Positions 28,518 to 45,461 of a DNA stretch of 64,000 nt are shown piece by piece (positions within the stretch are counted from its first letter, which is position 1; every line of letters starts with the position of its first letter). The notes under the pieces are model-generated. The model saw only the letters and a list, made by a program, of their open reading frames with translations. It had not been told where the DNA came from and searched no databases. The DNA comes from an uncultured Gemmatimonadota bacterium (GTDB lineage Bacteria; Latescibacterota; UBA2968; UBA8231), in contig CAITNQ010000314.1 in the NCBI GenBank assembly GCA_903893785.1, positions 947 to 64,946 on the forward strand, written 5' to 3'. A program made the position numbers and the translations under genes.

Positions 28518-29696
28518 ATGCACCTGTGCAGACGGCACTGGTTCCGCCTGTTGCTGACCACTGGCCTGGCCGCCGCGTTGCCGGCTGGCGCTGACAACGT
28601 CATCCTGTTCATCGGCGACGGCGCCGGACTGGCGCAGGTGGCCGCGGCCCGCATGGCCGCGCGCGGGCCGGACGGGCGCCTGGCGGTGGACGAGCTGGAA
28701 GACATCGGCCTGGTGACCACGCATTCGGCCAGCGGCCTGACCACTGACTCAGCCGCCGGCGCCACGGCCTATGCCACCGGCCACAAGACGACCAACGGCT
28801 GGCTCTCGGTGGCACCGGACGGCACGCGCCTGAAGACCCTGGTCGAGTACGCGCGCGAGGCCGGGATGGGGACCGGGATAGTCACCACGACCGGGGTAAC
28901 CCACGCCACGCCGGCGGCCTTCGCCGCCCACGTCAATGACCGTGGCGCGCAGGCCCAGATTGCGCCCATGATGGTGGCCACCGGACCGGACGTCCTGCTC
29001 GGCGGCGGTCGCAGTCTGTGGCTCCCCAAAGGAGCCCCGGGTTCGGAACGAGCCGACAGTCTGGACGTTGTGGCGTTGGCTCAACAAGCGGGGTACATGG
29101 TGGTCACGGACCGTATCGGCTTGCTGGCGGCCAACCCGCGCGCAACGCCACGCCTGCTGGGCCTGTTCGCGCTTGGGCATCTGTCCTACGTCGTCGACAG
29201 CGTGAGCACGGCCGAGCCGTCCCTGGCCGAGATGACGCGCAGCGCCATCGACCGGCTGCAGCACTCCCGCCGCGGGTTCTTCCTGATGGTCGAGGGTGGC
29301 CGAATCGATCACGCCTGCCACGGTCATGAGGGCACCAAGGCCATCTGGGAGGTGCTGAGCTTGGACCAGGCCATCCGCGAGGCAATCGACTTCGCCCACC
29401 GAGACCGGCACACGCTGGTGATTTTCGTCGCCGATCACGAGACGGGTGGCCTGTCGGTGGCCAATGGGCTGTACGACGGCTTCCCCGCCATTCCTCGCCG
29501 CGATGGGCAACCAGAGCGCACGGCCCCGCTGCAGGATCAGCTCAAACTGGGCTGGACCACCGACGGCCACACCGGCCTGCCGGTGATCGCCATGGCCGCC
29601 GGACCGGGCGCCGGCCGCGTCCGCGGCGTGCTGGACAACACGCAGATCTTCACCATTGCCATGCAGGCACTGGGACTGGAGGACAGACTCCGATGA
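28518..29696 (+). CDS. alkaline phosphatase (PhoA family), secreted
   Basis: Signal peptide, then 'NVILFIGDGAG', active-site 'TDSAAGATAYATGHKT' and 'DHACHG'. GAGGAGG RBS. Confidence 0.9.
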   Translation: MHLCRRHWFRLLLTTGLAAALPAGADNVILFIGDGAGLAQVAAARMAARGPDGRLAVDELEDIGLVTTHSASGLTTDSAAGATAYATGHKTTNGWLSVAPDGTRLKTLVEYAREAGMGTGIVTTTGVTHATPAAFAAHVNDRGAQAQIAPMMVATGPDVLLGGGRSLWLPKGAPGSERADSLDVVALAQQAGYMVVTDRIGLLAANPRATPRLLGLFALGHLSYVVDSVSTAEPSLAEMTRSAIDRLQHSRRGFFLMVEGGRIDHACHGHEGTKAIWEVLSLDQAIREAIDFAHRDRHTLVIFVADHETGGLSVANGLYDGFPAIPRRDGQPERTAPLQDQLKLGWTTDGHTGLPVIAMAAGPGAGRVRGVLDNTQIFTIAMQALGLEDRLR

Positions 29697-30754
29697 CCTG
29701 GCGAGTCGGTATTGCGGGGCTGCGGCGGGGGGCCAGCCTGGCCCACGTGCTCCATATGCAGCCGGACTGCACCATCGCGGCTGGCTGTGATCCAGCCCCC
29801 GCGGCGCTCGACGCTTTCGGCGCGCGTTACCCGCAGGCGCGACTGTTCAGCACGTTCGCCGATATGCTTGACGCAGGCATCGATGTCTGCGTCGTGGCTT
29901 CGCCAGTGCCGCTTCATTGCGCCCAGACCGTAGCCGCCCTAGCGGCCGGGTGCCACGTTCTCCAGGAAGTTTGCCTGGCGCCTTCGGTAGCCGAGTGCCG
30001 GACCGTGTTCGAGGCAGTGCAGGCACACCCCAGGCAGCAGTTCATGCTGGCCGAGAACTGCAACTACTGGGGGCACATCCTGTCCTGGCAGAGCATGTTT
30101 GCCCAGGGACTGCTGGGCGAACTGGTGCACGCCGAAGCTGAGTATATCCACGACTGTCGTACCCTGATGCACGACGCCGAAGGACGCCCCACTTGGCGGG
30201 CCACCATGCCGCCCATTCACTATTGCACCCACAGCCTGGGCCCCCTGCTGAAAATCACCGGCGCCCGCTGCGTGACGGCGTGCGGCATGCTGTCGGCCTC
30301 GAAGACCGACCCGGGCCCCGGGCACATCGATATCGAGACTGCCCTGTTGCAGACCGACACCGGCGCCACGGTGAAGCTAGTGGCGGGTTTCCGCGTGGCG
30401 CGCGAACCGGCTTTCCACTACTACTCGGTGTACGGGACGCGCGGCAGCCTGGAGACCGCGCGACCGCCCGCCCCCGCCCAGACCCATGCGTACCTGGAAG
30501 CGATCCCGCACCTGCAGGGCATGATGGACCTGCCGTTGGGCACGGATGTGCCGCGGGCTCCCGCCGGTGCCGGCGTGGGTGGCCATGGTACTGCCGAGTA
30601 TTACCTGGCGGTGGACTTCATGCGGGCGGTGCGCGAGGGAACGCGTCCGGCGATCGACATCCATGCCGCCCTGGACATGTCGTTACCCGGATTATGCGCC
30701 CACGAGAGCGCCCTGCAGGGCGGCAGACCGGTGGAGGTACCCGACTGGCGATAG
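29693..30754 (+). CDS. Gfo/Idh/MocA-family oxidoreductase
   Basis: 'WRVGIAGLRRGASL' and 'GCHVLQEV' (a degenerate EKP motif), with family-typical length. ATGA overlap with the phosphatase gene. Confidence 0.8.
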   Translation: MTWRVGIAGLRRGASLAHVLHMQPDCTIAAGCDPAPAALDAFGARYPQARLFSTFADMLDAGIDVCVVASPVPLHCAQTVAALAAGCHVLQEVCLAPSVAECRTVFEAVQAHPRQQFMLAENCNYWGHILSWQSMFAQGLLGELVHAEAEYIHDCRTLMHDAEGRPTWRATMPPIHYCTHSLGPLLKITGARCVTACGMLSASKTDPGPGHIDIETALLQTDTGATVKLVAGFRVAREPAFHYYSVYGTRGSLETARPPAPAQTHAYLEAIPHLQGMMDLPLGTDVPRAPAGAGVGGHGTAEYYLAVDFMRAVREGTRPAIDIHAALDMSLPGLCAHESALQGGRPVEVPDWR

Positions 30755-35810: not shown

Positions 35811-38081
35811 TCAGCCCAGCGAACGGACCGCGGCCACCAACGCTTCGGCGGTGATACCGAAATGGGCCCAGGTCTCCAGATGTCCATCGGAAGGCGCTAC
35901 GCGGGGATCGGTGATGCCAACGTGCTCGGTGCGCACGTGACTGCGCCGAGCTCGGGTCGCGACCACGCCGGCAAACCCGCAGAGCGCCGCGTCGGCGCCA
36001 CCGATCAATCCGTCTTCCACCGTCACCACACCCTCGGGGTAACGGCGGATCAGGTTCTCAAGCACCTCGCCGCGGACCGGCAGGCCGTTGACAATGTGAA
36101 CGTCCACCGGCACGCCCAGGCGGCGCAGTTCGGCGGCCGCCTCGCCAGCCAGGAACGCCGGGGCGCCCATCGCCAGGATCGCTCGCCGGGCACCCTCCGC
36201 GAGCCGGTACGCCGTCACCGGCTCCCACTCGGAGTCGGCCTCCCACAATGGGCCAGACCCATCGGGTCGGTCCAGGATCGGCAAGTTGTCACGCGGAATA
36301 CCGATGACATGTCCGCCGTAGTGAGCCGCCAGGTCGAGAGTGGCCACAAAGGCGGCGCGGGCATCGGCCGGGGCGTAGAACCGGTGCAGATAGGGCAGGT
36401 ACGTCAGGCCGAGGTTGATCCAGTCCAGGCCCCAGCCCGAGAAGTGGTCACGCCCGGTGCAGGCGCCCACATGCGAGAGGTGGAACGTGACGTTCAGGCC
36501 TTCGTTGACACCGGTCAGGTTGCGCTGATAGCGCCACATGTCAAAGCCTTCGCGGGCTATGCCCTCGAAGAACGCGGCGAAGGTGGACACCACACACAAC
36601 CGTGGCCCGGGTCCGCTCATGGCCAGGCCGTTGGCCATCAGCGTGGCGGCCTGTTCCTCGATGCTGACCTCGAACTGGTGGGCCTCGTCGAGGCAACCGC
36701 GCGCCTTGCCCAGTTTGGTGGAGGCATCCAGGTCGCAGGAGACCACGAACACGCGCTGGGGAAACTGGCGCGCCACCAGGGCATAGGCAGCCTCGCTGCC
36801 GGCTCTTGGGCTTTCGGCCTTGCCGACCGGCGGCAGCGCCGCGGCGGCCAGAGTGGCGCCCGGCAGGACCAGATTGGGCGTTCCGGGTTCCGGCCGGGCA
36901 GCCGTCACCACCAGGCGCGGCGTCTGATGGCCCAGGCTGGCCAGCGCCTGGTCGTGCGCCGAGGTCCGACGGAACATGGGCCCGTTCACCAGGCGTTCGG
37001 TGTCACGGCCCTTCATGTGACCGTCGTGGTGCCCCTTGCCCCCGGGCAGGCGGTTGACCAGGAAGAGACACTCGATCATGGCCTCGACGTCCCGGAAACT
37101 CATCAGCGATCCGGGCACCCAGACCTGCCGATCCATCGGCACGCCATGGGCCGCGGCAAAAGCCTCCACATCGGCAGTAATGCCGTATGTACGACCGAAC
37201 CACGCCAGGTCAATGCGCTGACCGGGGGCGGTCTGGTAACCGACCGGGTAGATCATGTTGGGCCGGCCGCGGCGGGCCAGATCATACCCTTCGCGATAGG
37301 CGGCGTACAGGGCCCGCGTGTCGTGCAGCGTGTCGACCTCGATGATCTCGACGCCCAGCGACTCGATGATCGGCCGCGGATCGCGGTCCATCACGCTTGC
37401 GGTAGCGCCGGAAAGCTGGATGCCGTTGCGGTGCATGACAAAGCTGATGGGGGCCCGGTGCAGATCGGCAATGTTGAAACCGTTGAGCGCCTGGCCCGAG
37501 ATCCACCCGGCATCGCCACAGTGGCAGATCACCCAGGCCTCGCTCCCGTGATCGGCGCGCTTGCCCAGAGCCTGGCCCACGGCGACCGGTACCATGACCC
37601 CAAGGCGGCCGCCGCTCAACTGCGTGCCTCCGGGCAGCCACGAGACGTGCCCGGGCAAGTCGAGACCGCGGCGGAAACCGGCGATGACATCGCGACGGTC
37701 CACATAGCCCAACGCCGCCAACGCGGCGAAATACCCCACGCTGGTGTGGGCGTGCTCAATGGTGTAGGCAACACGCTCGTAGTCCGTCACCGCCAGGGTC
37801 AGCAGCAGGGCCGGAATCAGTTCGAGCCCCCCGCCCAAGTGATCGGCCTCGCCCAACCGGCCCAATTCCGCCACCGAACGCACCGCGATCTCCGCCGCCT
37901 CGATCTGCAACCCCTCGAGGGCATCCAACTCAGCCGGCCCCAGGTCAGGGGTGGTTCGCACGTTGATCGACAAGGGCAGAACGCGCGACTCCTGGCGTCG
38001 ACCCAGGTAGCGGCAGGAACCGATCAGGGCCTGGTTGCGCTCCTGCTGGTCCCCCGATGCCGTAGACCACACTGCGCTCAT
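35811..38081 (-). CDS. transketolase-family thiamine-diphosphate enzyme (fused N- and C-terminal halves)
   Basis: 'DHLGGGLE', the TPP-binding 'CHCGDAGWISGQALNG...HRNGIQLSG', and a Pyr/C-terminal-like second half. 756 aa. Confidence 0.75.
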   Translation of the reverse strand: MSAVWSTASGDQQERNQALIGSCRYLGRRQESRVLPLSINVRTTPDLGPAELDALEGLQIEAAEIAVRSVAELGRLGEADHLGGGLELIPALLLTLAVTDYERVAYTIEHAHTSVGYFAALAALGYVDRRDVIAGFRRGLDLPGHVSWLPGGTQLSGGRLGVMVPVAVGQALGKRADHGSEAWVICHCGDAGWISGQALNGFNIADLHRAPISFVMHRNGIQLSGATASVMDRDPRPIIESLGVEIIEVDTLHDTRALYAAYREGYDLARRGRPNMIYPVGYQTAPGQRIDLAWFGRTYGITADVEAFAAAHGVPMDRQVWVPGSLMSFRDVEAMIECLFLVNRLPGGKGHHDGHMKGRDTERLVNGPMFRRTSAHDQALASLGHQTPRLVVTAARPEPGTPNLVLPGATLAAAALPPVGKAESPRAGSEAAYALVARQFPQRVFVVSCDLDASTKLGKARGCLDEAHQFEVSIEEQAATLMANGLAMSGPGPRLCVVSTFAAFFEGIAREGFDMWRYQRNLTGVNEGLNVTFHLSHVGACTGRDHFSGWGLDWINLGLTYLPYLHRFYAPADARAAFVATLDLAAHYGGHVIGIPRDNLPILDRPDGSGPLWEADSEWEPVTAYRLAEGARRAILAMGAPAFLAGEAAAELRRLGVPVDVHIVNGLPVRGEVLENLIRRYPEGVVTVEDGLIGGADAALCGFAGVVATRARRSHVRTEHVGITDPRVAPSDGHLETWAHFGITAEALVAAVRSLG

Positions 38082-38143: not shown

Positions 38144-39022
38144 TCAAGGCACGACGAAAAACGGCTGCGTCCAGGCAAACGCCTCACCGCAGCCCCAGCA
38201 CTCGAAACGCACGTAACGGGCGTCGGCGGGCACCTCGACCTCGAGCGACGGCGCGTCCACCTGAGCCAGACGCTGCGCCCCTTCGCGCAGTGCCACTACG
38301 CGGGCGGCGTTGGCGGTCTCGATCCTCAGCGACAAGCCGTCGGTTTCGATATCGGTGATCTCGACGCCGGTGGAGGCGTAGAAACGACCTTCACGCAGCG
38401 CCCGGGTGACCCCGGCGGCCGTTTCGTCGGTGACGTAAGCCACGTTCCAGCCTAGGCCCACATCGAACTGAGCCGCATGGCTGTCGTCGTTGGCAAATCC
38501 CCACAGGCGACGGCCCCGCGTCAGCAGCATGTCCCACCTGTTAGTGGCATACGGGCTGCCCGGAAGACGAGAAATCACCCCGTTATAGATCTCCAGCCCA
38601 AGATAGCCCTGGACCTCGCTCAGCAGGCTCTGCGGGCAGTGATCGAAGTCGGCGAACCAGTTCGGGTGGTTGAAGACGGCGAAACCACCGGTGGCGGCAA
38701 TATCGTTGACCACCTGCTGTCGGTCGGCGTGCGGGGCCACGGGTCCGGGCGCGCCCACGTGGAGCATATGGGGTCCGTGGGCGGTGATCTCGGTGCCCGG
38801 GACCAAGATCATGCCCATTGGTTCAAGCGCGGCCAATTCAGCGTCACCGAACCAGCAGTCGTGGTCGGAAAGCATCAGGAAGCCGTGGCCCCGCTCGGCG
38901 TAGTCGGCAATTACAGCCTGCGGATCCCGCTGCCCATCACTTCGCGTGGTGTGGGTGTGCAGATTACCGAGCAACCATCGGCCGCCGGTCAACTCGCCAT
39001 AGGGGTTGTGCAGGGTCGCCAA
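38144..39022 (-). CDS. PHP-domain (CehA/McbA-like) metallohydrolase
   Basis: 'LGNLHTHTTRSDGQ', 'LMLSDHD', 'FNHPNW' and 'NDDSH'. Confidence 0.75.
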   Translation of the reverse strand: MATLHNPYGELTGGRWLLGNLHTHTTRSDGQRDPQAVIADYAERGHGFLMLSDHDCWFGDAELAALEPMGMILVPGTEITAHGPHMLHVGAPGPVAPHADRQQVVNDIAATGGFAVFNHPNWFADFDHCPQSLLSEVQGYLGLEIYNGVISRLPGSPYATNRWDMLLTRGRRLWGFANDDSHAAQFDVGLGWNVAYVTDETAAGVTRALREGRFYASTGVEITDIETDGLSLRIETANAARVVALREGAQRLAQVDAPSLEVEVPADARYVRFECWGCGEAFAWTQPFFVVP

Positions 39023-39246: not shown

Positions 39247-39332
39247 ATCGGCTGCAGGAAGGCGTGACCGCACCGCCCCGCGCCCACCCGCGGCGCCGTT
39301 GGCCGCGCCCCGATCCTACCACGGAGGAGTCC

Positions 39333-39899
39333 ATGGCTGACCGCGTCCCGACCCGGGCCGAGGCCCTCGACCTGTTGCACCGCTACAACGCCAACCCCTC
39401 GCTGCTGGCCCATGCCCGCGCGGTCGAGGCCACCATGCGGCACTTCGCCCGGCGCCATGGCGAGGACGAGGAGACCTGGGGGCTGATCGGCCTGGTACAC
39501 GATCTCGACTATGAGCAGTTCCCCGACCAGCACTGCCACAAGACAGCGGAGATCCTGCGCGCCGCCGACTGGCCCGAGACCTGGGTGCGCGCCACTTTGG
39601 CCCACGGGTGGGGGATCTGCACCGATGTGGAACCCCAGTCGGCGCTGGAGCAAACGCTGTATGCCATCGACGAATTGACGGGGTTTGTTGCTGCCTGCGC
39701 CCTCGTCCGTCCGTCACGGAGCGTCGTTGACCTGGAAGTGAAATCAGTTCGCAAGAAATGGCGTCAGGCCAGTTTCGCCGCCGGTGTCGATCGAACCGTG
39801 GTCGAACGCGGGGCCGCCCGGCTCGGAGTCGAGTTGGACGAGTTGACGGCCGAGGTGATCGAGGCCATGCGCGGAGTAGCCGCAGAGTTGGGCCTGTAA
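39333..39899 (+). CDS. HD-domain phosphohydrolase
   Basis: 'HARAVEATMRHFA' and 'GLVHDLDYE' (the HD motif). GGAGGAG RBS before the ATG at 39333. Confidence 0.8.
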   Translation: MADRVPTRAEALDLLHRYNANPSLLAHARAVEATMRHFARRHGEDEETWGLIGLVHDLDYEQFPDQHCHKTAEILRAADWPETWVRATLAHGWGICTDVEPQSALEQTLYAIDELTGFVAACALVRPSRSVVDLEVKSVRKKWRQASFAAGVDRTVVERGAARLGVELDELTAEVIEAMRGVAAELGL

Positions 39900-40085
39900 C
39901 CCGGCGCGCCGGCTCGGAGTCGCGCGGGCGAGGCCGACGGCCGCGGCGATCGAGGCCACGCCGGCGGTCGCCGTCGAATCTGGCCGGTAGCCTGACGCCG
40001 ACGCTCGGAATCGCGCCGGCGGAGCGGATGGCCGAGGTGATCGCGGCCAGGCGCGGAGTAGCCGCGGAGTTGGGTCTGTAGCCCG
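39813..40085 (+). repeat. 91-bp tandem repeat x3: the last 87 nt plus stop of the HD gene and two degenerate downstream copies
   Basis: GCTCGGA(G/A)TC recurs at 39821, 39912 and 40003. Stop codons recur at 39897 (TAA), 39988 (TAG) and 40079 (TAG). The 3' half of copy 3 again encodes '...RGVAAELGL*'. Confidence 0.85.
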
Positions 40086-40217
40086 ACGCGCCGACCTTGC
40101 GCGGAGCCGGCACTTTCACGTTTGCGCCTCCTGCCATAGCTTTGCCGCCGCCGGTGGCCGTCGGGTCCTCGTCCCGAACAGGCCGCCGTCCCCGTCCATC
40201 CCAGAGGACCCGACGCC

Positions 40218-41411
40218 ATGGCCAGACGCCCGAAGATCGCGGCGGTGGTAACGACGTACCACCCCTATGCCCACGCGCAGCACATCGTCGATCGCTTCCT
40301 GGAGGGCTACGGCTGGAATGGCCGCCACCACCGGCCGGCGATGGATCTGGTGTCGATGTACGTTGACCAGGTCGGGGAGAACGACCTCAGCCGCGACCGC
40401 GAGCGTCGCTTTCCGCCGCTGCGAATCTACCCGACGATCGCCGATACACTGACGCTGGGCGGCTCGTCGCTGGCCGTCGACGGTGTGCTGCTGATCGCCG
40501 AGCATGGGCAGTACGGCCGCAACGAGAAGGGACAGGCGCTGTACCCGCGGTACGAGATGTTCCGGCAGATCGTCTCCGTATTCCGCCAGAGCGGCCGGGC
40601 AGTCCCGGTGTTCAACGACAAGCACCTGTCGTGGAAATGGGAGTGGTGCCAGGAAATGTGCGACACAGCCAGGGAACTGGGCTTCGCGTTCATGGCCGGG
40701 TCGTCGCTGCCGGTAACCTGGCGCACGCCGCAGATCGACATGCCCTTGGGGGCCCGCGTCACTGAAGCCATGTGCGTTGGCTACGGCGGCGTGGACAGCT
40801 ACGACTACCACGCCCTGGAGACCCTGCAGTGCATGGTCGAGCGACGCGCCGGGGGCGAGAGCGGCGTCCGCTGGTTCCAGGCTTTCCGCGGCGATCGTTT
40901 CTGGGCCGCCCACCATCAGCGACGCTGGTCGCGCGAGCTGTTCGAGGCCTGTCTGTGTCGCTCGCACACGCTGCATCCGGCCCGCGCCGGGTTCAACGAC
41001 GTGTTCCCGAACGAAGACGAGATGCGCCAAATCGTCACCGATCCCATCGCTTACCAGTACGAGCATCGGGACGGGCTTCTGTCGACCATGATCATGATGA
41101 ATGGCCTAGTGCAGGACTTCAATTTCGCGGCCACCCTAGCCGACCAGGACGAGCCCCTGTCGACCCAGATGTACCTGCCCATGCCGCCGGCGCGGACGAC
41201 ACTGGCGAACTTCTTCAGCCCGCTGGTCAACAACGTCGAGTTGATGTTCCTCACCGGCCGCGCGACGTATCCGGTCGAACGCACCTTGCTCACCTCCGGG
41301 CTGGTGATCGCCGGGGTCGACAGCCTGCACCAGGACCAGGCCCGGCTCGACACGCCCCACCTGGCGGTGGCCTATCAGGCCACCTCGGAATCGACCTTCT
41401 GGAGAACGTGA
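40218..41411 (+). CDS. uncharacterised protein P1 (tandem paralog of P2)
   Basis: 397 aa and no family I can name. The N-terminus 'KIAAVVTTYHPYAHAQHIVDRF...VDGVLLIAEHG' has the layout of a Gfo/Idh/MocA Rossmann domain but lacks the GxGxxG and EKP motifs. Confidence 0.8.
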   Translation: MARRPKIAAVVTTYHPYAHAQHIVDRFLEGYGWNGRHHRPAMDLVSMYVDQVGENDLSRDRERRFPPLRIYPTIADTLTLGGSSLAVDGVLLIAEHGQYGRNEKGQALYPRYEMFRQIVSVFRQSGRAVPVFNDKHLSWKWEWCQEMCDTARELGFAFMAGSSLPVTWRTPQIDMPLGARVTEAMCVGYGGVDSYDYHALETLQCMVERRAGGESGVRWFQAFRGDRFWAAHHQRRWSRELFEACLCRSHTLHPARAGFNDVFPNEDEMRQIVTDPIAYQYEHRDGLLSTMIMMNGLVQDFNFAATLADQDEPLSTQMYLPMPPARTTLANFFSPLVNNVELMFLTGRATYPVERTLLTSGLVIAGVDSLHQDQARLDTPHLAVAYQATSESTFWRT

Positions 41412-41540
41412 AACCCTGTACCGGGCGCCGTCAGGCCGTCCCGTGATGCCGCCGCGGCGCGGCACGCAGAGGCCCGGAACCCGTCCGTCCGTCCCGGCAC
41501 CCCGGTCGCCGCCCACCCTTTGCCGCCGAGCAGGCCAGCC

Positions 41541-42731
41541 ATGAGCACCCAAGCGCCCCAGCGCATTGCCGTGATCGCCACCATCTACAAGTACCTGTCC
41601 CACGCCCAGCACTTCGCCGACCGCTTCATGGTGGGTTACCCGTACGAAGGCCGGTGGCAGCGCCCGAATATGAAGGTCGTGTCGCTGTTCGTGGACCAGC
41701 GGCCCATGGGCGACCAGAGCGAGGACCGTGCCCGCGAATTCGGCTTCTGCGTCTACCCCACCATCGCCGCAGCCCTGCGCTGTGGCGGCGACCGTCTGGC
41801 AGTGGACGCCGTGCTCATCATCGGCGAGCACGGCGACTATCCGACCAACGAGCTGGGCCAGATCCTCTACCCACGCTATGAGTTCTTCAAAGAATGCGTG
41901 AAGGTGTTCGAAGCGGACGGCCGCAGTGTGCCGGTGTACAACGACAAACACCTTTCGTACAGCTTCGCCAAGGCCCGTGAAATGGTCGACGATGGTCACC
42001 GCCTGGGCTTCCCCATCCTGGCGGGTTCGTCGCTGCCGGTTACCTGGCGCCTGCCCGATGTGGAGCTGCCGCTCGGCGCGCCTGTGGAAGAGGCGGTCAT
42101 GGTGGGCTGCGGCGGTTCGGACCCGATGGACTACCATGCGCTGGAGGCCATGCAGTGCATGGTGGAGCGTCGGCGGGGCGGTGAGACGGGCATCAAAGCT
42201 GTGCAGTTGCTCGACGGCGACGATGTCTGGCGGGCGCTGGATGCCGGTCGCTGGTCGCGCGCGCTGTTGGAAGCGGCGCTGTCGCGCAGCGACTCACCCT
42301 GCGGCCTGACGCTGGAGGACGGCCGCACGCAGGACATGCTGGGCAACGGCGAACTGCCGCGCTTGGTGGAGAAGCCAGCTGCATATTTGATCGAGTACAA
42401 CGACGGGCTGCGGGCCACGCTGTTGATGCTCAACGGCGCGGTACGCGACTTCTGCTTCGCCTGCCGCCTGACGGGCCAGGCAGAACCCGTGTCGACCCAG
42501 TTCTTCCTGACGCCGGTGCCCAACGTCACGTACTCGGCTTGCCTGGTAGCCAAGATCGTCGAGATGTTCCAGACCGGTTCGGCGCCTTTCCCTGCCGAAC
42601 GCACGCTCATCGTCAGCGGCATGCTGGAGAGCTGCCTGCAGTCGCGCGCGCACGGGCACCAGCGCCTCGAGACGCCCCACCTGTCGGTGGTCTATCAGGC
42701 CCCTGCCGAGTCCCATCACGCCCGACGGTGA
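41541..42731 (+). CDS. uncharacterised protein P2 (tandem paralog of P1)
   Basis: Colinear with P1, for example 'YPRYEFFKECVKVF', 'VPVYNDKHLS', 'LAGSSLPVTWR', 'YHALEAMQCMVERRRGGETG' and 'ETPHLSVVYQA'. The start could be the ATG at 41541 or the TTG at 41520. Confidence 0.8.
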   Translation: MSTQAPQRIAVIATIYKYLSHAQHFADRFMVGYPYEGRWQRPNMKVVSLFVDQRPMGDQSEDRAREFGFCVYPTIAAALRCGGDRLAVDAVLIIGEHGDYPTNELGQILYPRYEFFKECVKVFEADGRSVPVYNDKHLSYSFAKAREMVDDGHRLGFPILAGSSLPVTWRLPDVELPLGAPVEEAVMVGCGGSDPMDYHALEAMQCMVERRRGGETGIKAVQLLDGDDVWRALDAGRWSRALLEAALSRSDSPCGLTLEDGRTQDMLGNGELPRLVEKPAAYLIEYNDGLRATLLMLNGAVRDFCFACRLTGQAEPVSTQFFLTPVPNVTYSACLVAKIVEMFQTGSAPFPAERTLIVSGMLESCLQSRAHGHQRLETPHLSVVYQAPAESHHARR

Positions 42732-43624
42732 GTTCGCCGGTCTCGACCGGCGAACTGGCGGCCCTGCTGTGCGCCCTGCTGTGGGCCGTCAACGGCATGC
42801 TGTTGCGCGCCCAGGCCGACCGTATTCCGCCGACCAGTGTCACGGTGGTGCGCTGCGCGGTGGCGGCGCTGATGTTTTGGCTGCTGCTGCCCTTCAGCGA
42901 CTCCCTGACCGAACTGGGCCGAGTACCCTGGGGCGAATGGGGGCTGTTGCTGGCTTCGGTGATGGCCGGTATCGGTGTCGGCGACACGCTCTATCTCATC
43001 GCCATCAAGCAGATTGGCCTGAGCCTGACCATGGCCCTGGCCGGCGTTTTCCCACTGACCACCCTGGTGTGGGAGTGGCTGCTGCTGGGGCGGCCGCCGG
43101 GCTGGTCGTTGGCCGTGGGCAGCGTGCTGGTAGTCGCCGGTGTCGTGCTCATGTCGCGCTCCGGCGACCGCCGGTCGGCCACCCTGGCGGCCTCGCCGCA
43201 GCACCTGCAACGAGGTTTGGCCCTGGCCCTGGGAGCGGCGGTGTTCTGGGGCCTGGCCTCGGTTCTGCTCAAACCGGCCATTGCCCACCTGTCGCTGCTG
43301 CAGGCCAATGCTGCCCGCATGACGATGGTCGCCGCGCTGCTCTACGCGCTGCGCGTGCTGCCGCAGGGCCGCCAGGGGCTGGGAACCTACGACCGCCGTT
43401 CCTTCCTCATCGTCAGCCTCACGGGCATCCTGGGCATGGGCGTGGGGGCCTACCTGTTTCTCTACGCCCTGGGCCATATGGGCGTGGCCAAGGCCGTGAC
43501 CCTGACCTCCAGCGCGCCGCTGTTCGGAGTCGCCCTGGGGATGGCCTTCCTGCACGAACGCCTCACACCCGCCGCGGGTTTGGGAGTGGCCTGCTGCATG
43601 GTGGGCGTCTGGGTCGTGTTGTGA
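42728..43624 (+). CDS. DMT-superfamily (EamA-like) transporter
   Basis: About 10 hydrophobic segments, with EamA-like repeats ('LLCALLWAVNGMLLR' and 'AVFWGLASVLLKP'). The GTG at 42728 overlaps the P2 stop (GTGA). Confidence 0.8.
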   Translation: MSSPVSTGELAALLCALLWAVNGMLLRAQADRIPPTSVTVVRCAVAALMFWLLLPFSDSLTELGRVPWGEWGLLLASVMAGIGVGDTLYLIAIKQIGLSLTMALAGVFPLTTLVWEWLLLGRPPGWSLAVGSVLVVAGVVLMSRSGDRRSATLAASPQHLQRGLALALGAAVFWGLASVLLKPAIAHLSLLQANAARMTMVAALLYALRVLPQGRQGLGTYDRRSFLIVSLTGILGMGVGAYLFLYALGHMGVAKAVTLTSSAPLFGVALGMAFLHERLTPAAGLGVACCMVGVWVVL

Positions 43625-43652
43625 CCGTGAATGACCGGACCGCAGCCGGCCC

Positions 43653-44564
43653 ATGAGCCCGATTGCCATCGCCCTGATCGTGGTGTCGGCCATCCTGCAC
43701 GCCACCTGGAACCTGCTGAGCAAACGCCGGCAACCCGCCTCGGGGTACTTCCTGCTGGCCAACCTGGCCGGCGTGGCGCTGCTCTCGCCGGTGGTGCTCG
43801 TTTATCGGGTCGTGCTGCAGCAGCGTACCTTGCCTTTGCTCGGGCTGCTGGCCCTGACGGGCGTGTTCCAAGCCACCTATTACGGGGGCCTGGCGCGCGC
43901 CTACCGCGCCGGGGACATCTCGGTGGCCTATCCGCTGGCCCGTTCGTCGCCGGTGCTGATGGTGACGGCAGCCAGTTTCCTTGCGGGCCGTGGCAGCCCC
44001 GTAAGCGGCGCCTGTATCGCCGGCATGCTGCTGGTGGTCTGCGGGTGTGCGCTGGTGCCCATGCACCACCTGGGCGACCTGCGGTGGCGCACCTACGCCA
44101 ACCCGACCTGCGCCTTCGCGCTGGTGGCCGCCGTAGGGACGGCAGGCTACTCACTGGTCGACGATCTGGCACTGCGCCTGCTGCGGGACACGCCCGCACG
44201 CGCCGCCGTCGGGGTGACCGGGGTGACACTGGTCTACGCCTGGATGGAGGGCATGTCCACCAGCGTCTGCTTGTTCGCCCTCAGCGCCTGCCGGCCCGCC
44301 GCCCGGCAGCGTCTGCGCCGCTACCTGGCCAATGACATCAAGGGTGCGTGCCTGGCGGGAGGGATGATCTACCTGACCTACTCGCTGGTATTGACTGCCA
44401 TGGCTTTCGTCACTCACGTCAGCTATGTGGTGGCCTTCCGGCAGCTGAGCATTCCATTGGGCGCCGTGTTCGGCGTGGTGGTGCTACGCGAACCCGCGTA
44501 CCGCCCCAAGGCCCTGGGCGTGGCGATCGTGCTGGGCGGTCTGGTGCTGGTGGCCACCGGCTGA
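43653..44564 (+). CDS. DMT-superfamily membrane protein
   Basis: 303 aa and about 10 TM segments ('IALIVVSAILHATWNLLSK'). Confidence 0.7.
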   Translation: MSPIAIALIVVSAILHATWNLLSKRRQPASGYFLLANLAGVALLSPVVLVYRVVLQQRTLPLLGLLALTGVFQATYYGGLARAYRAGDISVAYPLARSSPVLMVTAASFLAGRGSPVSGACIAGMLLVVCGCALVPMHHLGDLRWRTYANPTCAFALVAAVGTAGYSLVDDLALRLLRDTPARAAVGVTGVTLVYAWMEGMSTSVCLFALSACRPAARQRLRRYLANDIKGACLAGGMIYLTYSLVLTAMAFVTHVSYVVAFRQLSIPLGAVFGVVVLREPAYRPKALGVAIVLGGLVLVATG

Positions 44565-44651
44565 GAGGGGCCGCGCGCCGGCTGGTGGGGGCGGGCCTGC
44601 GTCGGCGCGACAACCTGTCACGGTGCGGCAGACGCACCAGGGAGACCGGCG

Positions 44652-45461
44652 ATGGAACTAAGCTTGCGCGGCAAGAGCGCCCTGATCACGGGCGGCGCCA
44701 GCGGCATCGGGCTGGGCATCGCGACAGTCCTGGCTGGCGAAGGCATGGACCTGGCCATTGCCAGCCGCTCGCCGGACGCCGAGGCGATCGCCACGCTACG
44801 CCGGCTGGGCACGCGGATCGAGGCTATTGCGGCCGATGTCAGCGACGAAGAGCAAGCCGTCGCCATGGTTGACAGGGCGGCCGAGTGCTTCGGTGGCCTG
44901 GACAGCTACGTCAACAACGCCGCCTGGGCCTGGCACGAACCGGTCACTCGGGTCACGTCCAAGGCGTGGAATGACACCCTCAACACCAACTTGAGCGCCG
45001 CCATGTGGGCCTGCCGGACGGCGGCGCGGCACATGGTACGACGCCGGGCCGGCAACATCGTATTGATCAGCTCCACCGCCAAACTGACGACCGGGTTCGG
45101 CGAGGCCGCGTACCGAGTCTCCAAACTGGGCTTGAACGCCTTGATGCAGAGCCTGTGCGTTGAGCTGGCTCCCCACGGCATCCGCGTCAACATGGTGACA
45201 CCCGGGCACTTCGTGACCCGCCTGACGGGTTGGGACCGTCTGGACCGGGACCGCGTCGAGCAGTTCCGCGACCGCTACATTCCGCTGCAGCGCTATGGCG
45301 AGGTAGAACAGATCGGTTCCGCCGTGGCCTTGCTGCTCTCCGACCGGGTCAGCGGGTACACTACCGGCGCTGACATCGTGGTGGATGGCGGCCTGCAGCA
45401 CGCCATGATCAAGGTTGCCGGCGACGACGAGCTCCGCGCCCTAAACGCTCCCCAGGGCTGA
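44652..45461 (+). CDS. short-chain dehydrogenase/reductase (SDR)
   Basis: 'ALITGGASGIGLGIA' (TGxxxGxG), 'NNAA' and 'YRVSK' (YxxxK). Confidence 0.9.
   Translation: MELSLRGKSALITGGASGIGLGIATVLAGEGMDLAIASRSPDAEAIATLRRLGTRIEAIAADVSDEEQAVAMVDRAAECFGGLDSYVNNAAWAWHEPVTRVTSKAWNDTLNTNLSAAMWACRTAARHMVRRRAGNIVLISSTAKLTTGFGEAAYRVSKLGLNALMQSLCVELAPHGIRVNMVTPGHFVTRLTGWDRLDRDRVEQFRDRYIPLQRYGEVEQIGSAVALLLSDRVSGYTTGADIVVDGGLQHAMIKVAGDDELRALNAPQG

What the first reader, a model, noticed from the sequence alone, without database searches (positions are those of the whole stretch)
40218..45461. Tandem uncharacterised paralogs (P1/P2) coupled to two DMT transporters and an SDR
- P1 (397 aa) and P2 (~397 aa) are colinear, at about 40-50% identity by eye.
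- They share blocks such as 'YPRYE(M/F)F', 'VPV(F/Y)NDKHLS', 'AGSSLPVTWR', 'YHALE..QCMVERR.GGE.G' and 'TPHL.V.YQA'.
- Their N-termini mimic the beta1/'VDAV-I--E' layout of Gfo/Idh/MocA dehydrogenases but lack GxGxxG and EKP, so they may not bind NAD(P).
- The P2 stop overlaps the start of an EamA-type transporter (GTGA). A second DMT protein and an SDR follow on the same strand with gaps of 29-88 nt.

Inference: this is a heteromeric enzyme or pseudo-enzyme pair acting on a small metabolite that the DMT proteins move. I know of no described function for this family.
Basis: partly seen in the sequence, partly recalled or inferred. Interest (0 to 1): 0.65.

Follow-up and report, generated by a model that had tools for sequence, protein, structure and literature searches.

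The report
Paired divergent Gfo/Idh/MocA-fold proteins, function unknown
Two adjacent genes encode a conserved pair of proteins that probably work as one unit (other bacteria make them as a single fused protein); they have the fold of sugar dehydrogenases but lack the usual NAD-binding loop, and they belong to a large family that no database names.

Summary
**Observation: confirmed.**
- P1 (40218-41411) and P2 (41541-42731) are colinear paralogs, 49% identical (E 3e-128).
- The P2 stop overlaps the GTG start of an EamA gene. A second EamA gene and an SDR gene follow.

**What it is**
- Pfam, NCBIfam and PDB sequence searches give no significant hit. Every public copy is called "hypothetical protein".
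- An AlphaFold model of P1 (pLDDT 95.8) matches only Gfo/Idh/MocA structures (Foldseek E about 1e-11, TM 0.5-0.57).
- A family profile aligns VPVFNDKHLS with the VFCEKPIALS motif of that family. The catalytic lysine is kept; the GxGxxG loop is replaced by T-x-Y-x3-S-H-A.

**The pair is one unit**
- P2 lies downstream of P1 in 78 of 80 genomes from at least six phyla, at 73-89% identity.
- At least 80 sequence clusters are natural P1-P2 fusions. One folds with pTM 0.91.
- Both halves keep every family motif, so this is not an enzyme/pseudo-enzyme pair.
- Single-copy relatives with Tat-type signals also exist.

**Context**
- The SDR link is not conserved.
- EamA, PHP or HD hydrolases and AKR reductases recur only in Latescibacterota and Gemmatimonadota, so the transporter link is partly supported.

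**Verdict:** a new, unnamed variant of a known fold. Heterodimer: well supported. Chemistry, cofactor and substrate: inferred.

The parts
40218..41411 (+). P1, 397 aa. Subunit 1 of the pair, with a divergent Gfo/Idh/MocA fold and no signal peptide.
   Evidence: - ORF.
- No Pfam or NCBIfam hit.
- AF2 model: pLDDT 95.8, pTM 0.94.
- Foldseek top hits are all Gfo/Idh/MocA structures.
- Orthologs are 73-84% identical in 80 genomes.
41541..42731 (+). P2, 396 aa (alternative TTG start at 41520 gives 403 aa). Subunit 2, a paralog of P1.
   Evidence: - 49% identical to P1.
- Orthologs are about 80% identical across phyla.
- Downstream of P1 in 78 of 80 loci.
- Fused to P1 in at least 80 sequence clusters.
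42728..43624 (+). DMT1, an EamA-family transporter of 298 aa. Its GTG start overlaps the P2 stop codon.
   Evidence: - PF00892, E 2e-43.
- Overlap read directly from the sequence.
- Orthologs follow P2 only in L002, L039, L047 and L076.
43653..44564 (+). DMT2, a second EamA-type transporter of 303 aa.
   Evidence: - PF00892, E 2.7e-7.
- TIGR03340 phn_DUF6, E 6.8e-51 (173.6 bits, below the 288-bit cut-off).
- Conserved only in L002.
44652..45461 (+). SDR-family oxidoreductase, 269 aa.
   Evidence: - adh_short and adh_short_C2, E 1e-49 to 1e-54.
- No NCBIfam model reaches its cut-off.
- Not next to P1/P2 in any of the 80 related loci.
39333..39899 (+). HD-domain protein, 188 aa in the public gene call (the longest ORF starts at 39264). 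It lies upstream on the same strand.
   Evidence: - PF01966, E 6e-6; gene call.
- Orthologs lie directly upstream of P1 in L002, L013, L029, L045, L064 and L067.
38144..39022 (-). PHP-type (CehA/McbA) metallohydrolase, 292 aa, transcribed divergently.
   Evidence: - NF038032, E 9e-26, above its cut-off.
- A 30-31% identical PHP gene lies upstream of P1 on the same strand in 16 further loci; in L014 and L081 it ends 35 nt before P1.

Best explanation
**What it is**
- P1 and P2 are the two halves of one obligate hetero-oligomer, most simply a heterodimer.
- They belong to a large, unnamed and very divergent branch of the Gfo/Idh/MocA two-domain fold.
- In Planctomycetota, Chloroflexota and Acidobacteriota the same two modules are made as a single polypeptide of about 810-850 aa.

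**Motifs, by alignment or analogy with Gfo/Idh/MocA motifs**
- V-P-V-F-N-D-K-H-L-S corresponds to the V-x-C-E-K-P motif, so the catalytic lysine is kept.
- A-G-S-S-L-P-V-T-W-R-x-P resembles the G-x3-R-F-x-P element (my reading by eye).
- G-G-x-D-x-x-D-Y/F-H-A-L-E resembles the C-terminal-domain Asp/His element (my reading by eye).
- The Gly-rich dinucleotide loop is replaced by T-x-Y-x3-S-H-A.
- Two further conserved elements, E-H-G after strand 4 and L-Y-P-R, are added.

**How it most likely works**
- My best reading is a cytoplasmic enzyme with two equivalent active sites. It would act on a secondary alcohol or carbonyl of a sugar-like small molecule by oxidation/reduction or by redox-assisted isomerisation or elimination.
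- The cofactor site is remodelled, so cofactor binding is non-canonical or absent.
- In this window the pair sits in a lineage-variable cassette that also moves the compound (two EamA carriers) and processes it (HD and PHP hydrolases, an SDR).

**Status of each step**
- Shown: the fold, the paralogy, the pairing, the fusions and the motif retention.
- Inferred: the oligomer geometry, the catalytic roles, the cofactor and the substrate class.
For: **Fold**
- AF2 model of P1: pLDDT 95.8, pTM 0.94.
- Foldseek against PDB: 309 hits at E <= 1e-3. The top 50 are all Gfo/Idh/MocA-fold proteins, including GFOR, GenD2, myo-inositol dehydrogenase, NAD-dependent glycosidases, Gal80p and YjhC (E 4e-12 to 8e-10, probability 1.0).
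- The family profile hits only Gfo/Idh/MocA chains in PDB (6z3b, 6z3c, 6o15). It aligns VPVFNDKHLS with VFCEKPIALS.
- hhalign shows the N-terminal domains are colinear.

**Heteromer**
- P2 lies downstream of P1 in 78 of 80 species genomes. The gap is <= 150 nt in 63 of those 78, and many overlap.
- 41 further, more divergent pairs turned up in metagenome contigs.
- At least 80 sequence clusters are natural P1-P2 fusions of 807-851 aa.
- The fusion P0433 folds with pLDDT 91.9 and pTM 0.91. Only the linker, residues 400-415, is disordered.

**Both halves look competent**
- 115 positions are at least 95% conserved and identical in both the P1 and P2 ortholog sets. These include SH-QH, EHG, LYPRY, NDKHLS, GSSLPVT-R-P, ERR-GGE-GV and ERTL.

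**Looks like an enzyme rather than a scaffold**
- About 39% of near-full-length family representatives carry a twin-arginine motif.
- Relatives are fused to 3-keto-disaccharide-hydrolase domains (DUF1080) or to a PQQ sugar dehydrogenase plus cytochrome c.
- The four N-domain motifs are all present in 62 of 89 representatives and all absent in 6, as expected if they form one functional site.

**Context**
- The array EamA - PHP - P1 - P2 - AKR lies on one strand in Latescibacterota. The array AKR - HD - P1 - P2 occurs in another group. This window has HD - P1 - P2 - EamA - EamA - SDR.
Against: - No Pfam Gfo/Idh/MocA model is matched.
- TM-scores are only 0.5-0.57 and sequence identity is 9-15%.
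- The Gly-rich fingerprint, which the family's literature treats as the determinant of NAD(P) binding (PMC11612644), is absent. A hydride-transfer mechanism is therefore unproven.
- GFOD1 shows that a member of this fold can lose the cofactor and possibly catalysis.
- I could not inspect model coordinates. The spatial clustering of the conserved residues and the P1:P2 interface are inferred only from topology and pTM.
- Neighbour genes differ strongly between lineages. Poribacteria have sulfatase, MBL, PhyH and a PEP-hydrolase-like gene. Soil pairs have DUF362, peptidase M19 and a TonB receptor. The substrate class is therefore weakly constrained.
- The link to the EamA and SDR genes may be local.
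Confidence: 0.6

Rival explanations
1. An ordinary NAD(P)-dependent sugar or polyol dehydrogenase heterodimer. NAD(P) still binds, with the phosphate-binding role of GxGxxG taken over by the Thr/Tyr/Ser/His side chains of T-x-Y-x3-S-H-A. Cytoplasmic pairs would then simply be a new dehydrogenase subfamily.
For: - Fold and catalytic Lys are retained.
- An acidic residue (D50, in VDQ) sits at the end of strand 2, where NAD-specific Rossmann proteins bind the adenosine ribose. It is >= 90% conserved among the fusions.
- Many relatives have Tat signals, as does cofactor-loaded GFOR (PDB title 1h6d).
Against: - No glycine is found at any of the three fingerprint positions in thousands of sequences.
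- The loop is one residue longer, and bulky Tyr and His replace Gly.
- A 16-residue conserved insertion (EHG-Y-x-N-x-x-G-Q-x-L-Y-P-R) follows strand 4, next to where the nicotinamide ribose normally lies.
Confidence: 0.3
2. A cofactor-independent or metal-dependent enzyme (isomerase, dehydratase, lyase or hydrolase). The former dinucleotide cleft would be rebuilt into a His/Asp/Glu-rich centre (H19, H22, D25, E95, H96, D134, H136, H198, E201) that binds a metal or the substrate directly.
For: - Conserved His, Asp and Glu residues are dense in exactly the loops after strands 1, 4 and 5, which converge on the Rossmann cleft.
- These motifs are lost together in degenerate paralogs.
- Neighbours are mostly hydrolases, while separate NAD(P) reductases (AKR, SDR) could supply the redox step.
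Against: - No member of this fold is known to me to work without NAD(P), apart from the GFOD pseudoenzymes (PMC11612644).
- No coordinates were available to test whether these residues form a metal-binding geometry.
- Retention of the Lys and His pair is equally expected for a dehydrogenase.
Confidence: 0.25
3. A non-catalytic heterodimer (sensor, regulator or scaffold), as Gal80p and GFOD1 are within the same fold.
For: - Gal80p chains are among the best structural matches.
- GFOD1 is a cofactor-deficient member of the fold (PMC11612644).
- A sigma-54 activator gene follows the P1-P2-AKR array in Latescibacterota.
Against: - Orthologs are 73-89% identical across phyla, with invariant polar residues at enzyme-like positions.
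- Relatives are Tat-exported, or fused to DUF1080, cytochrome c or a PQQ dehydrogenase.
- There is no DNA-binding or signalling domain.
Confidence: 0.08
4. The adjacency to the EamA genes and the SDR is accidental. P1/P2 would be a self-contained module unrelated to the downstream genes.
For: - The SDR is absent from all 80 related loci. DMT2 is present only in L002. No Poribacteria locus has an EamA gene nearby.
Against: - The P2 stop and the DMT1 start overlap by 4 nt.
- EamA genes of two different ortholog groups lie next to P1/P2 in 17 loci, in three different arrangements.
Confidence: 0.35

Closest known systems
Gfo/Idh/MocA oxidoreductase superfamily (Z. mobilis GFOR, B. subtilis myo-inositol dehydrogenase, GenD2/KanD2, RgNanOx/YjhC, NAD-dependent glycosidases)
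   Same: - Two-domain architecture: an N-terminal Rossmann-like sheet plus a C-terminal alpha/beta domain.
- Motifs are colinear. The lysine of the E-K-P motif is kept as D-K-H.
- A His-containing element in the C-terminal domain.
- Oligomerisation as dimers is typical of the fold.
- Some members are Tat-exported, as GFOR is.
   Different: - No Pfam match.
- GxGxxG/A is replaced by T-x-Y-x3-S-H-A, and E-K-P by D-K-H.
- An extra conserved insertion, EHG...LYPR.
- An obligate pair of paralogs, or a tandem fusion, instead of a homo-oligomer.
- The cofactor is unknown.
GFOD1/GFOD2 (vertebrate cofactor-deficient Gfo/Idh/MocA proteins; PMC11612644)
   Same: - Same fold.
- Altered cofactor site, with the 'site 1/site 2' substrate-side residues retained (Arg/Tyr there, Lys/His here).
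   Different: - GFOD1 still has a GxSxxA fingerprint and forms a homodimer.
- It is found only in vertebrates and is proposed to be a pseudoenzyme that binds NKIRAS2.
- The present family is bacterial and huge. It is often Tat-exported or fused to enzyme domains, and it keeps far more invariant polar residues.
Gal80p (yeast GAL repressor with the Gfo/Idh/MocA fold)
   Same: Structural match at E about 1e-10. It is an example of the fold used without catalysis.
   Different: Gal80p is eukaryotic, forms a homodimer and is regulatory. No comparable partner proteins (Gal4/Gal3-like) or regulatory context are seen here.
Periplasmic Gfo/Idh/MocA + DUF1080 + cytochrome c sugar-oxidising systems of Planctomycetota and Bacteroidota (from my own knowledge of 3-keto-glycoside pathways)
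   Same: Relatives of P1/P2 show the same fusion and export pattern: Tat signal, and fusion to DUF1080 or to GSDH plus cytochrome c.
   Different: - Those systems use canonical NAD(P)-binding Gfo/Idh/MocA proteins.
- P1 and P2 themselves have no signal peptide and no such fusion.

Membership tests
Gfo/Idh/MocA superfamily (fold level) | Two-domain fold: an N-terminal Rossmann-like domain plus a C-terminal alpha/beta domain. | tested here: met
   AF2 model with pLDDT 95.8. The top 50 Foldseek PDB hits are all of this fold: E 4e-12 to 8e-10, probability 1.0, TM 0.44-0.57.
Gfo/Idh/MocA family (Pfam PF01408/PF02894/PF22725) | Sequence match to the family HMMs above the gathering score. | tested here: not met
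   Zero Pfam families for P1 and P2 at E <= 0.01. No relevant NCBIfam hit. Precomputed Pfam is '-' for all 360 listed homologs except P0470, whose only entry is a peptidase M19 domain.
Gfo/Idh/MocA family | Gly-rich fingerprint GxGxxG/A between strand 1 and helix 1 (PMC11612644). | tested here: not met
   P1 reads VVTTYHPYAHAQH and P2 reads IATIYKYLSHAQH. The family consensus is T-x-Y-x-x-x-S-H-A, with no conserved Gly.
Gfo/Idh/MocA family | GxxVxCEKP motif with the catalytic or substrate-binding Lys. | tested here: inconclusive
   The profile alignment places VPVFNDKHLS on VFCEKPIALS of 6z3b (E 1e-3). The Lys is >= 90% conserved, but Glu is Asp and Pro is His.
Gfo/Idh/MocA family | Catalytic His/Tyr, with a nearby Asp, in the C-terminal domain ('site 2/3', PMC11612644). 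| tested here: inconclusive
   H198 in G-G-V-D-S-Y-D-Y-H-A-L-E is >= 90% conserved and lies at the start of the C-terminal domain. The residue-level structural equivalence could not be checked because no coordinates or alignment were returned.
Gfo/Idh/MocA family | Binds NAD(P)(H). | not testable with these tools
   Needs co-folding or docking with coordinates, or biochemistry.
Obligate heteromer of paralogs ('Rosetta-stone' pair) | Conserved adjacency, natural gene fusions, and a confident relative placement of the two modules. | tested here: met
   78 of 80 genome loci plus 41 metagenome loci hold the pair. At least 80 sequence clusters are fusions. The fusion model has pTM 0.91. Physical interaction itself was not tested.
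EamA/DMT transporters (DMT1, DMT2) | Match to PF00892 above the gathering score. | tested here: met
   DMT1 scores 148.4 bits and DMT2 31.4 bits, against a cut-off of 28.2.
Short-chain dehydrogenase/reductase (SDR) | Match to PF00106/PF13561 above the gathering score. | tested here: met
   167.5 and 183.1 bits. No specific NCBIfam equivalog reaches its cut-off.

The most novel reading that the evidence does not exclude
This family may be the first large bacterial clade of the Gfo/Idh/MocA fold in which the dinucleotide site has been rebuilt. T-x-Y-x3-S-H-A, E-H-G, L-Y-P-R and D-K-H would together form a new catalytic centre that uses a different cofactor or a metal, or needs none. That would give the fold chemistry not described for it. 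The centre would be deployed both as a cytoplasmic obligate heterodimer or fusion and as Tat-exported single-gene forms.
Probability: 0.3. Interest if true: 0.75.

Novelty: new variant of a known kind. Interest (0 to 1): 0.55.

Why it matters
- **Size and conservation.** The family has at least 2,835 clusters at 50% identity, and more than 8,000 close sequences for each of P1 and P2. Orthologs are 73-89% identical across at least six phyla. No database names it.
- **Where it occurs.** It is found in hard-to-culture glycan degraders: Poribacteria from sponges, Latescibacterota, Gemmatimonadota, Planctomycetota and Chloroflexota. Knowing its reaction would fill a recurrent gap in their metabolic reconstructions.
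- **Enzymology.** It asks what a Gfo/Idh/MocA fold does once the Gly-rich NAD(P) loop is gone but the catalytic Lys and His remain.
- **Evolution.** It offers a clean natural series: single-copy Tat-exported gene, paralogous pair, fused gene. This is useful for studying how heteromers evolve after duplication.

Tried and rejected
- **Sequence searches with nothing useful.** Pfam and NCBIfam scans of P1 and P2. phmmer of P1 and P2 against PDB gave only noise at E > 0.7.
- **Single-sequence profile comparison.** hhalign of the family against the window's own Gfo/Idh/MocA-like protein was uninformative. A 13-sequence profile gave only 47% probability, although the alignment was colinear.
- **Modelling the window's own P1+P2.** MAFFT would not place P1 and P2 orthologs on the two halves of a fusion. 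I solved this by collecting natural fusions.
- **Context look-ups.** The look-up of encoding contigs for P0069 returned nothing.
- **Neighbour annotation.** NCBIfam gave no specific equivalog for the AKR, PHP, HD, PhyH, MBL, M19, DUF362 or unknown upstream proteins.
- **Phosphonate idea, considered and not adopted.** The cues were a phn_DUF6-like EamA, an HD protein, PhyH-family dioxygenases and a PEP-hydrolase-like gene. All hits are far below the family cut-offs, and the genes come from different lineages.
- **Literature.** Four accepted searches, including motif strings, found no paper on this family. Two earlier searches were rejected for a term-syntax error.
- **Promoter and terminator scan.** Nothing above background.

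Full report
**1. The observation**

The region lies in a window of about 68% G+C. It holds five same-strand ORFs:

| Gene | Coordinates | Size | Annotation |
|---|---|---|---|
| P1 | 40218-41411 | 397 aa | none |
| P2 | 41541-42731 | 396 aa (403 aa from the TTG at 41520) | none |
| DMT1 | 42728-43624 | 298 aa | EamA |
| DMT2 | 43653-44564 | 303 aa | EamA |
| SDR | 44652-45461 | 269 aa | short-chain dehydrogenase |

- The P2 stop (TGA, 42729-42731) overlaps the DMT1 start (GTG, 42728-42730).

**2. No sequence-level family**

- Pfam gives nothing for P1 or P2, and NCBIfam gives only one noise-level hit for P1 (E 0.056, 13 bits against a 270-bit cut-off).
- phmmer against all PDB chains gives only noise.
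- Each protein has more than 8,000 close relatives in the 5.8-billion-protein collection.
- The best 120 relatives of P1 are 74-84% identical. The best 120 relatives of P2 are 78-89% identical.
- All of them are named 'hypothetical protein' or unnamed, and none has a precomputed Pfam domain.
- A full HMMER scan of 1.84 billion cluster representatives finds 2,835 clusters (at 50% identity) with E <= 1e-3, and 564 with E <= 1e-30.
- Literature searches, including searches for the motif strings, found no paper on the family.

**3. Fold**

- I modelled P1 with a 71-sequence alignment (A1). The model is very confident: mean pLDDT 95.8, pTM 0.94.
- Foldseek against PDB returns 309 matches at E <= 1e-3.
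- The top 50 are all Gfo/Idh/MocA-fold proteins: glucose-fructose oxidoreductase, GenD2/KanD2, myo-inositol dehydrogenases, NAD-dependent glycosidases and sulfoquinovosidases, aldose-aldose oxidoreductase, YjhC, biliverdin reductase and Gal80p.
- These hits have E 4e-12 to 8e-10 and probability 1.0, but TM only 0.44-0.57 and 7-15% identity.
- The A1 profile searched against PDB sequences hits only Gfo/Idh/MocA chains (6z3b/6z3c at E 1e-3, 6o15 at E 0.1).
- That alignment places 'sgrsVPVFndkhLSyswedakemvdtarelgfplmAGS' on 'aehgVNVFCEKPIALSYQDCDEMVRTCQEHGVIFMAGH'.
- The family's D-K-H therefore sits where the E-K-P motif sits, and the lysine is >= 90% conserved.

Other correspondences below are my reading of the consensus, not a structural superposition:

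| Canonical element | In this family |
|---|---|
| G-x-G-x-x-G (absent here) | T-x-Y-x3-S-H-A |
| G-x3-R-F-x-P | A-G-S-S-L-P-x-x-W-R-x-P |
| C-terminal-domain Asp/His element | G-x-G-x-x-E/D-x-Y-G-F-H-A-L-E |

The family also has a conserved insertion after strand 4: E-H-G-x-Y-x-x-N-x-x-G-Q-x-L-Y-P-R.

**4. The pair is one unit**

*Genomes.*
- A scan of one genome per GTDB species found at least 546 matching stretches. The 80 best loci come from Latescibacterota, Poribacteria, Gemmatimonadota, Chloroflexota (Caldilineaceae), Armatimonadota (Chthonomonadaceae) and Handelsmanbacteria. They are 73-84% identical to P1.
- In 78 of the 80, a P2 ortholog (72-89% identical) follows on the same strand.
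- The estimated gap is <= 150 nt in 63 of those 78, and many overlap.
- In nine Poribacteria loci one extra gene is inserted between the two.
- The two loci without P2 are contigs of 3.6-3.7 kb.

*Metagenomes.*
- A scan seeded with the nearest single-copy relatives returned another 41 P1-P2 pairs, 53-77% identical to the window's P1 and P2, plus one locus with three tandem copies.

*Fusions.*
- Searching with a 799-aa representative returned at least 80 clusters of full-length P1-P2 fusion proteins, 807-851 aa. They come from Fuerstiella (Planctomycetota), Caldilineaceae and other Chloroflexota, and Bryobacteraceae.
- Locus L010 is one of them.
- I folded the fusion P0433 with 73 natural fusions as its alignment. 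It gives pLDDT 91.9 and pTM 0.91.
- Only the linker, residues 400-415, falls below pLDDT 50.
- A pTM this high for two 400-residue modules means their mutual arrangement is predicted confidently. That is my inference, because no PAE or coordinates were returned.

*Both halves look competent.*
- In 65 ortholog pairs, 115 positions are at least 95% conserved and identical in P1 and P2. These include all the family motifs.
- Another 46 positions are conserved but differ between P1 and P2, for example MPPAR..LANFFSP against TPTPNVT-YSAC.
- Both halves therefore look equally competent, and the 'pseudo-enzyme partner' idea is not supported.

**5. The wider family**

- The closest single-copy relatives are P0124-like: about 51% identical to both P1 and P2, with an N-terminal RRxFL twin-arginine motif.
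- They occur alone in 34 metagenome loci, many with 8 kb of flank on each side.
- Their neighbours are often DUF1501 genes (13 of 34 loci) and PSCyt2-PSD1 genes (6 of 34).
- Among 89 near-full-length representatives, 35 have a twin-arginine motif in the first 45 residues.
- Some relatives are fused to a 3-keto-disaccharide-hydrolase domain (DUF1080; P0151, P0216).
- Others are fused to a PQQ-type sugar dehydrogenase plus cytochrome c (P0227).
- The four N-domain motifs (SHA, EHG, YPR, DKH) are all present in 62 of the 89 representatives and all missing in 6. That fits a single functional site.
- These features point to enzymes of carbohydrate-type redox metabolism rather than scaffolds.

**6. 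Genomic context of the pair**

| Lineage or locus | Gene order around P1-P2 |
|---|---|
| This window and its closest relative L002 | PHP-type hydrolase (minus strand) - HD - P1 - P2 - EamA - EamA. The SDR is present only in the window. |
| Latescibacterota | One-strand array: PS-decarboxylase - UxuA-like TIM barrel - (DUF4159) - EamA - PHP (CehA/McbA) - P1 - P2 - aldo/keto reductase - sigma-54 activator. In L014 and L081 the PHP gene ends 35 nt before P1. |
| L013, L029, L045, L064 | AKR - HD - P1 - P2 |
| Gemmatimonadota | EamA ... PHP ... P1 - P2 - DMT1-like |
| Poribacteria | Sulfatase - MBL - PhyH - unknown ~190-aa protein - P1 - P2 - (WD40 or dockerin) - PEP-hydrolase-like - PhyH, with cytochrome c or an enolase-superfamily gene |
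| Divergent soil and freshwater pairs | An unknown 307-aa protein, DUF362, peptidase M19, AKR or a TonB receptor |

These orders come unless noted.

- Transporter, phosphoesterase-type hydrolase and NAD(P) reductase genes recur with P1/P2 in several lineages and in different arrangements.
- NCBIfam gives no specific equivalog for any neighbour.

**7. Interpretation**

*Shown*
- A confidently predicted Gfo/Idh/MocA fold.
- No Gly-rich loop.
- The lysine retained at the E-K-P position.
- An almost invariably paired or fused organisation.
- Both halves conserved.

*Inferred*
- P1 and P2 form a heterodimer of the kind usual for this fold, with two equivalent active sites.
- The protein is an enzyme acting on a sugar-like secondary alcohol or carbonyl.
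- The cofactor site is non-canonical.

*What remains open*
- NAD(P) may still be bound. An acidic residue persists at the end of strand 2, and many relatives are Tat-exported.
- Alternatively a metal or another group may replace NAD(P), given the dense His/Asp/Glu in the loops after strands 1, 4 and 5.
- These tools cannot decide this.
- GFOD1 lacks NAD(P) binding, and its authors describe the GFOD proteins as the only known cofactor-deficient members of the family (PMC11612644). It is the nearest precedent for loss of the cofactor. It still has a GxSxxA fingerprint, forms a homodimer and occurs only in vertebrates.

**8. Verdict**

- This is not a member of any named family. It is a new, very large and highly conserved variant of a known fold, organised as an obligate pair or fusion.
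- The finding is real. It is wrong on 'pseudo-enzyme' and over-extended on the SDR.
- Interest is moderate to high for enzyme discovery. The function remains unknown.

Noticed in passing
window 39821-40093: Three tandem copies of a 91-nt unit (67-84% identical). The unit contains the 3' end and stop codon of the HD-domain gene. Copies 2 and 3 fill much of the HD-P1 intergenic region and create a spurious ORF ending in ...GVAAELGL.
   Followed up: partly
window 29693-30754 (+): A protein that Pfam assigns to GFO_IDH_MocA has a degenerate fingerprint (VGIAGLRRGAS) and a degenerate E-K-P motif (LQEVCLAP). It is a second, independent case of an eroded cofactor site in the same window.
   Followed up: no
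L035, L049, L054, L058, L070, L073 (between P1 and P2); L053, L065, L079: In six Poribacteria genomes a conserved ORF of about 200-208 aa (MAFTDFKSIMQVQE...) is inserted between P1 and P2. In three others a WD40-like secreted protein is inserted there. The nature of the ~208-aa ORF is unknown.
   Followed up: no
L055 11202-11552 and 12915-13790: The P2 ortholog is split by an insertion of about 1.36 kb inside the gene. It could be a mobile element or an assembly artefact.
   Followed up: no
L083-L115, L160 (metagenome loci): Single-copy relatives of P1/P2 with Tat-type signals lie next to DUF1501 genes (13 of 34 loci) and PSCyt2-PSD1 genes (6 of 34). These are themselves uncharacterised gene families.
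   Followed up: partly
proteins P0129, P0130, P0138, P0154 and others: A minority of family members have lost all four N-domain motifs (SHA, EHG, YPR, DKH) together, while keeping the C-terminal-domain motifs. They are candidates for true pseudo-enzyme paralogs. Their genomic partners were not examined.
   Followed up: no
window 35811-38081 (-): A 756-aa protein carries both E1_dh and transketolase pyrimidine-binding domains. It has only weak, sub-threshold similarity to transketolase models. It is conserved next to the PHP gene in L002 and L082.
   Followed up: no
protein P0470 (872 aa): A relative carries a precomputed peptidase M19 (PF01244) domain. Separate M19 genes lie next to divergent P1-P2 pairs in 6 of 42 loci.
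   Followed up: no
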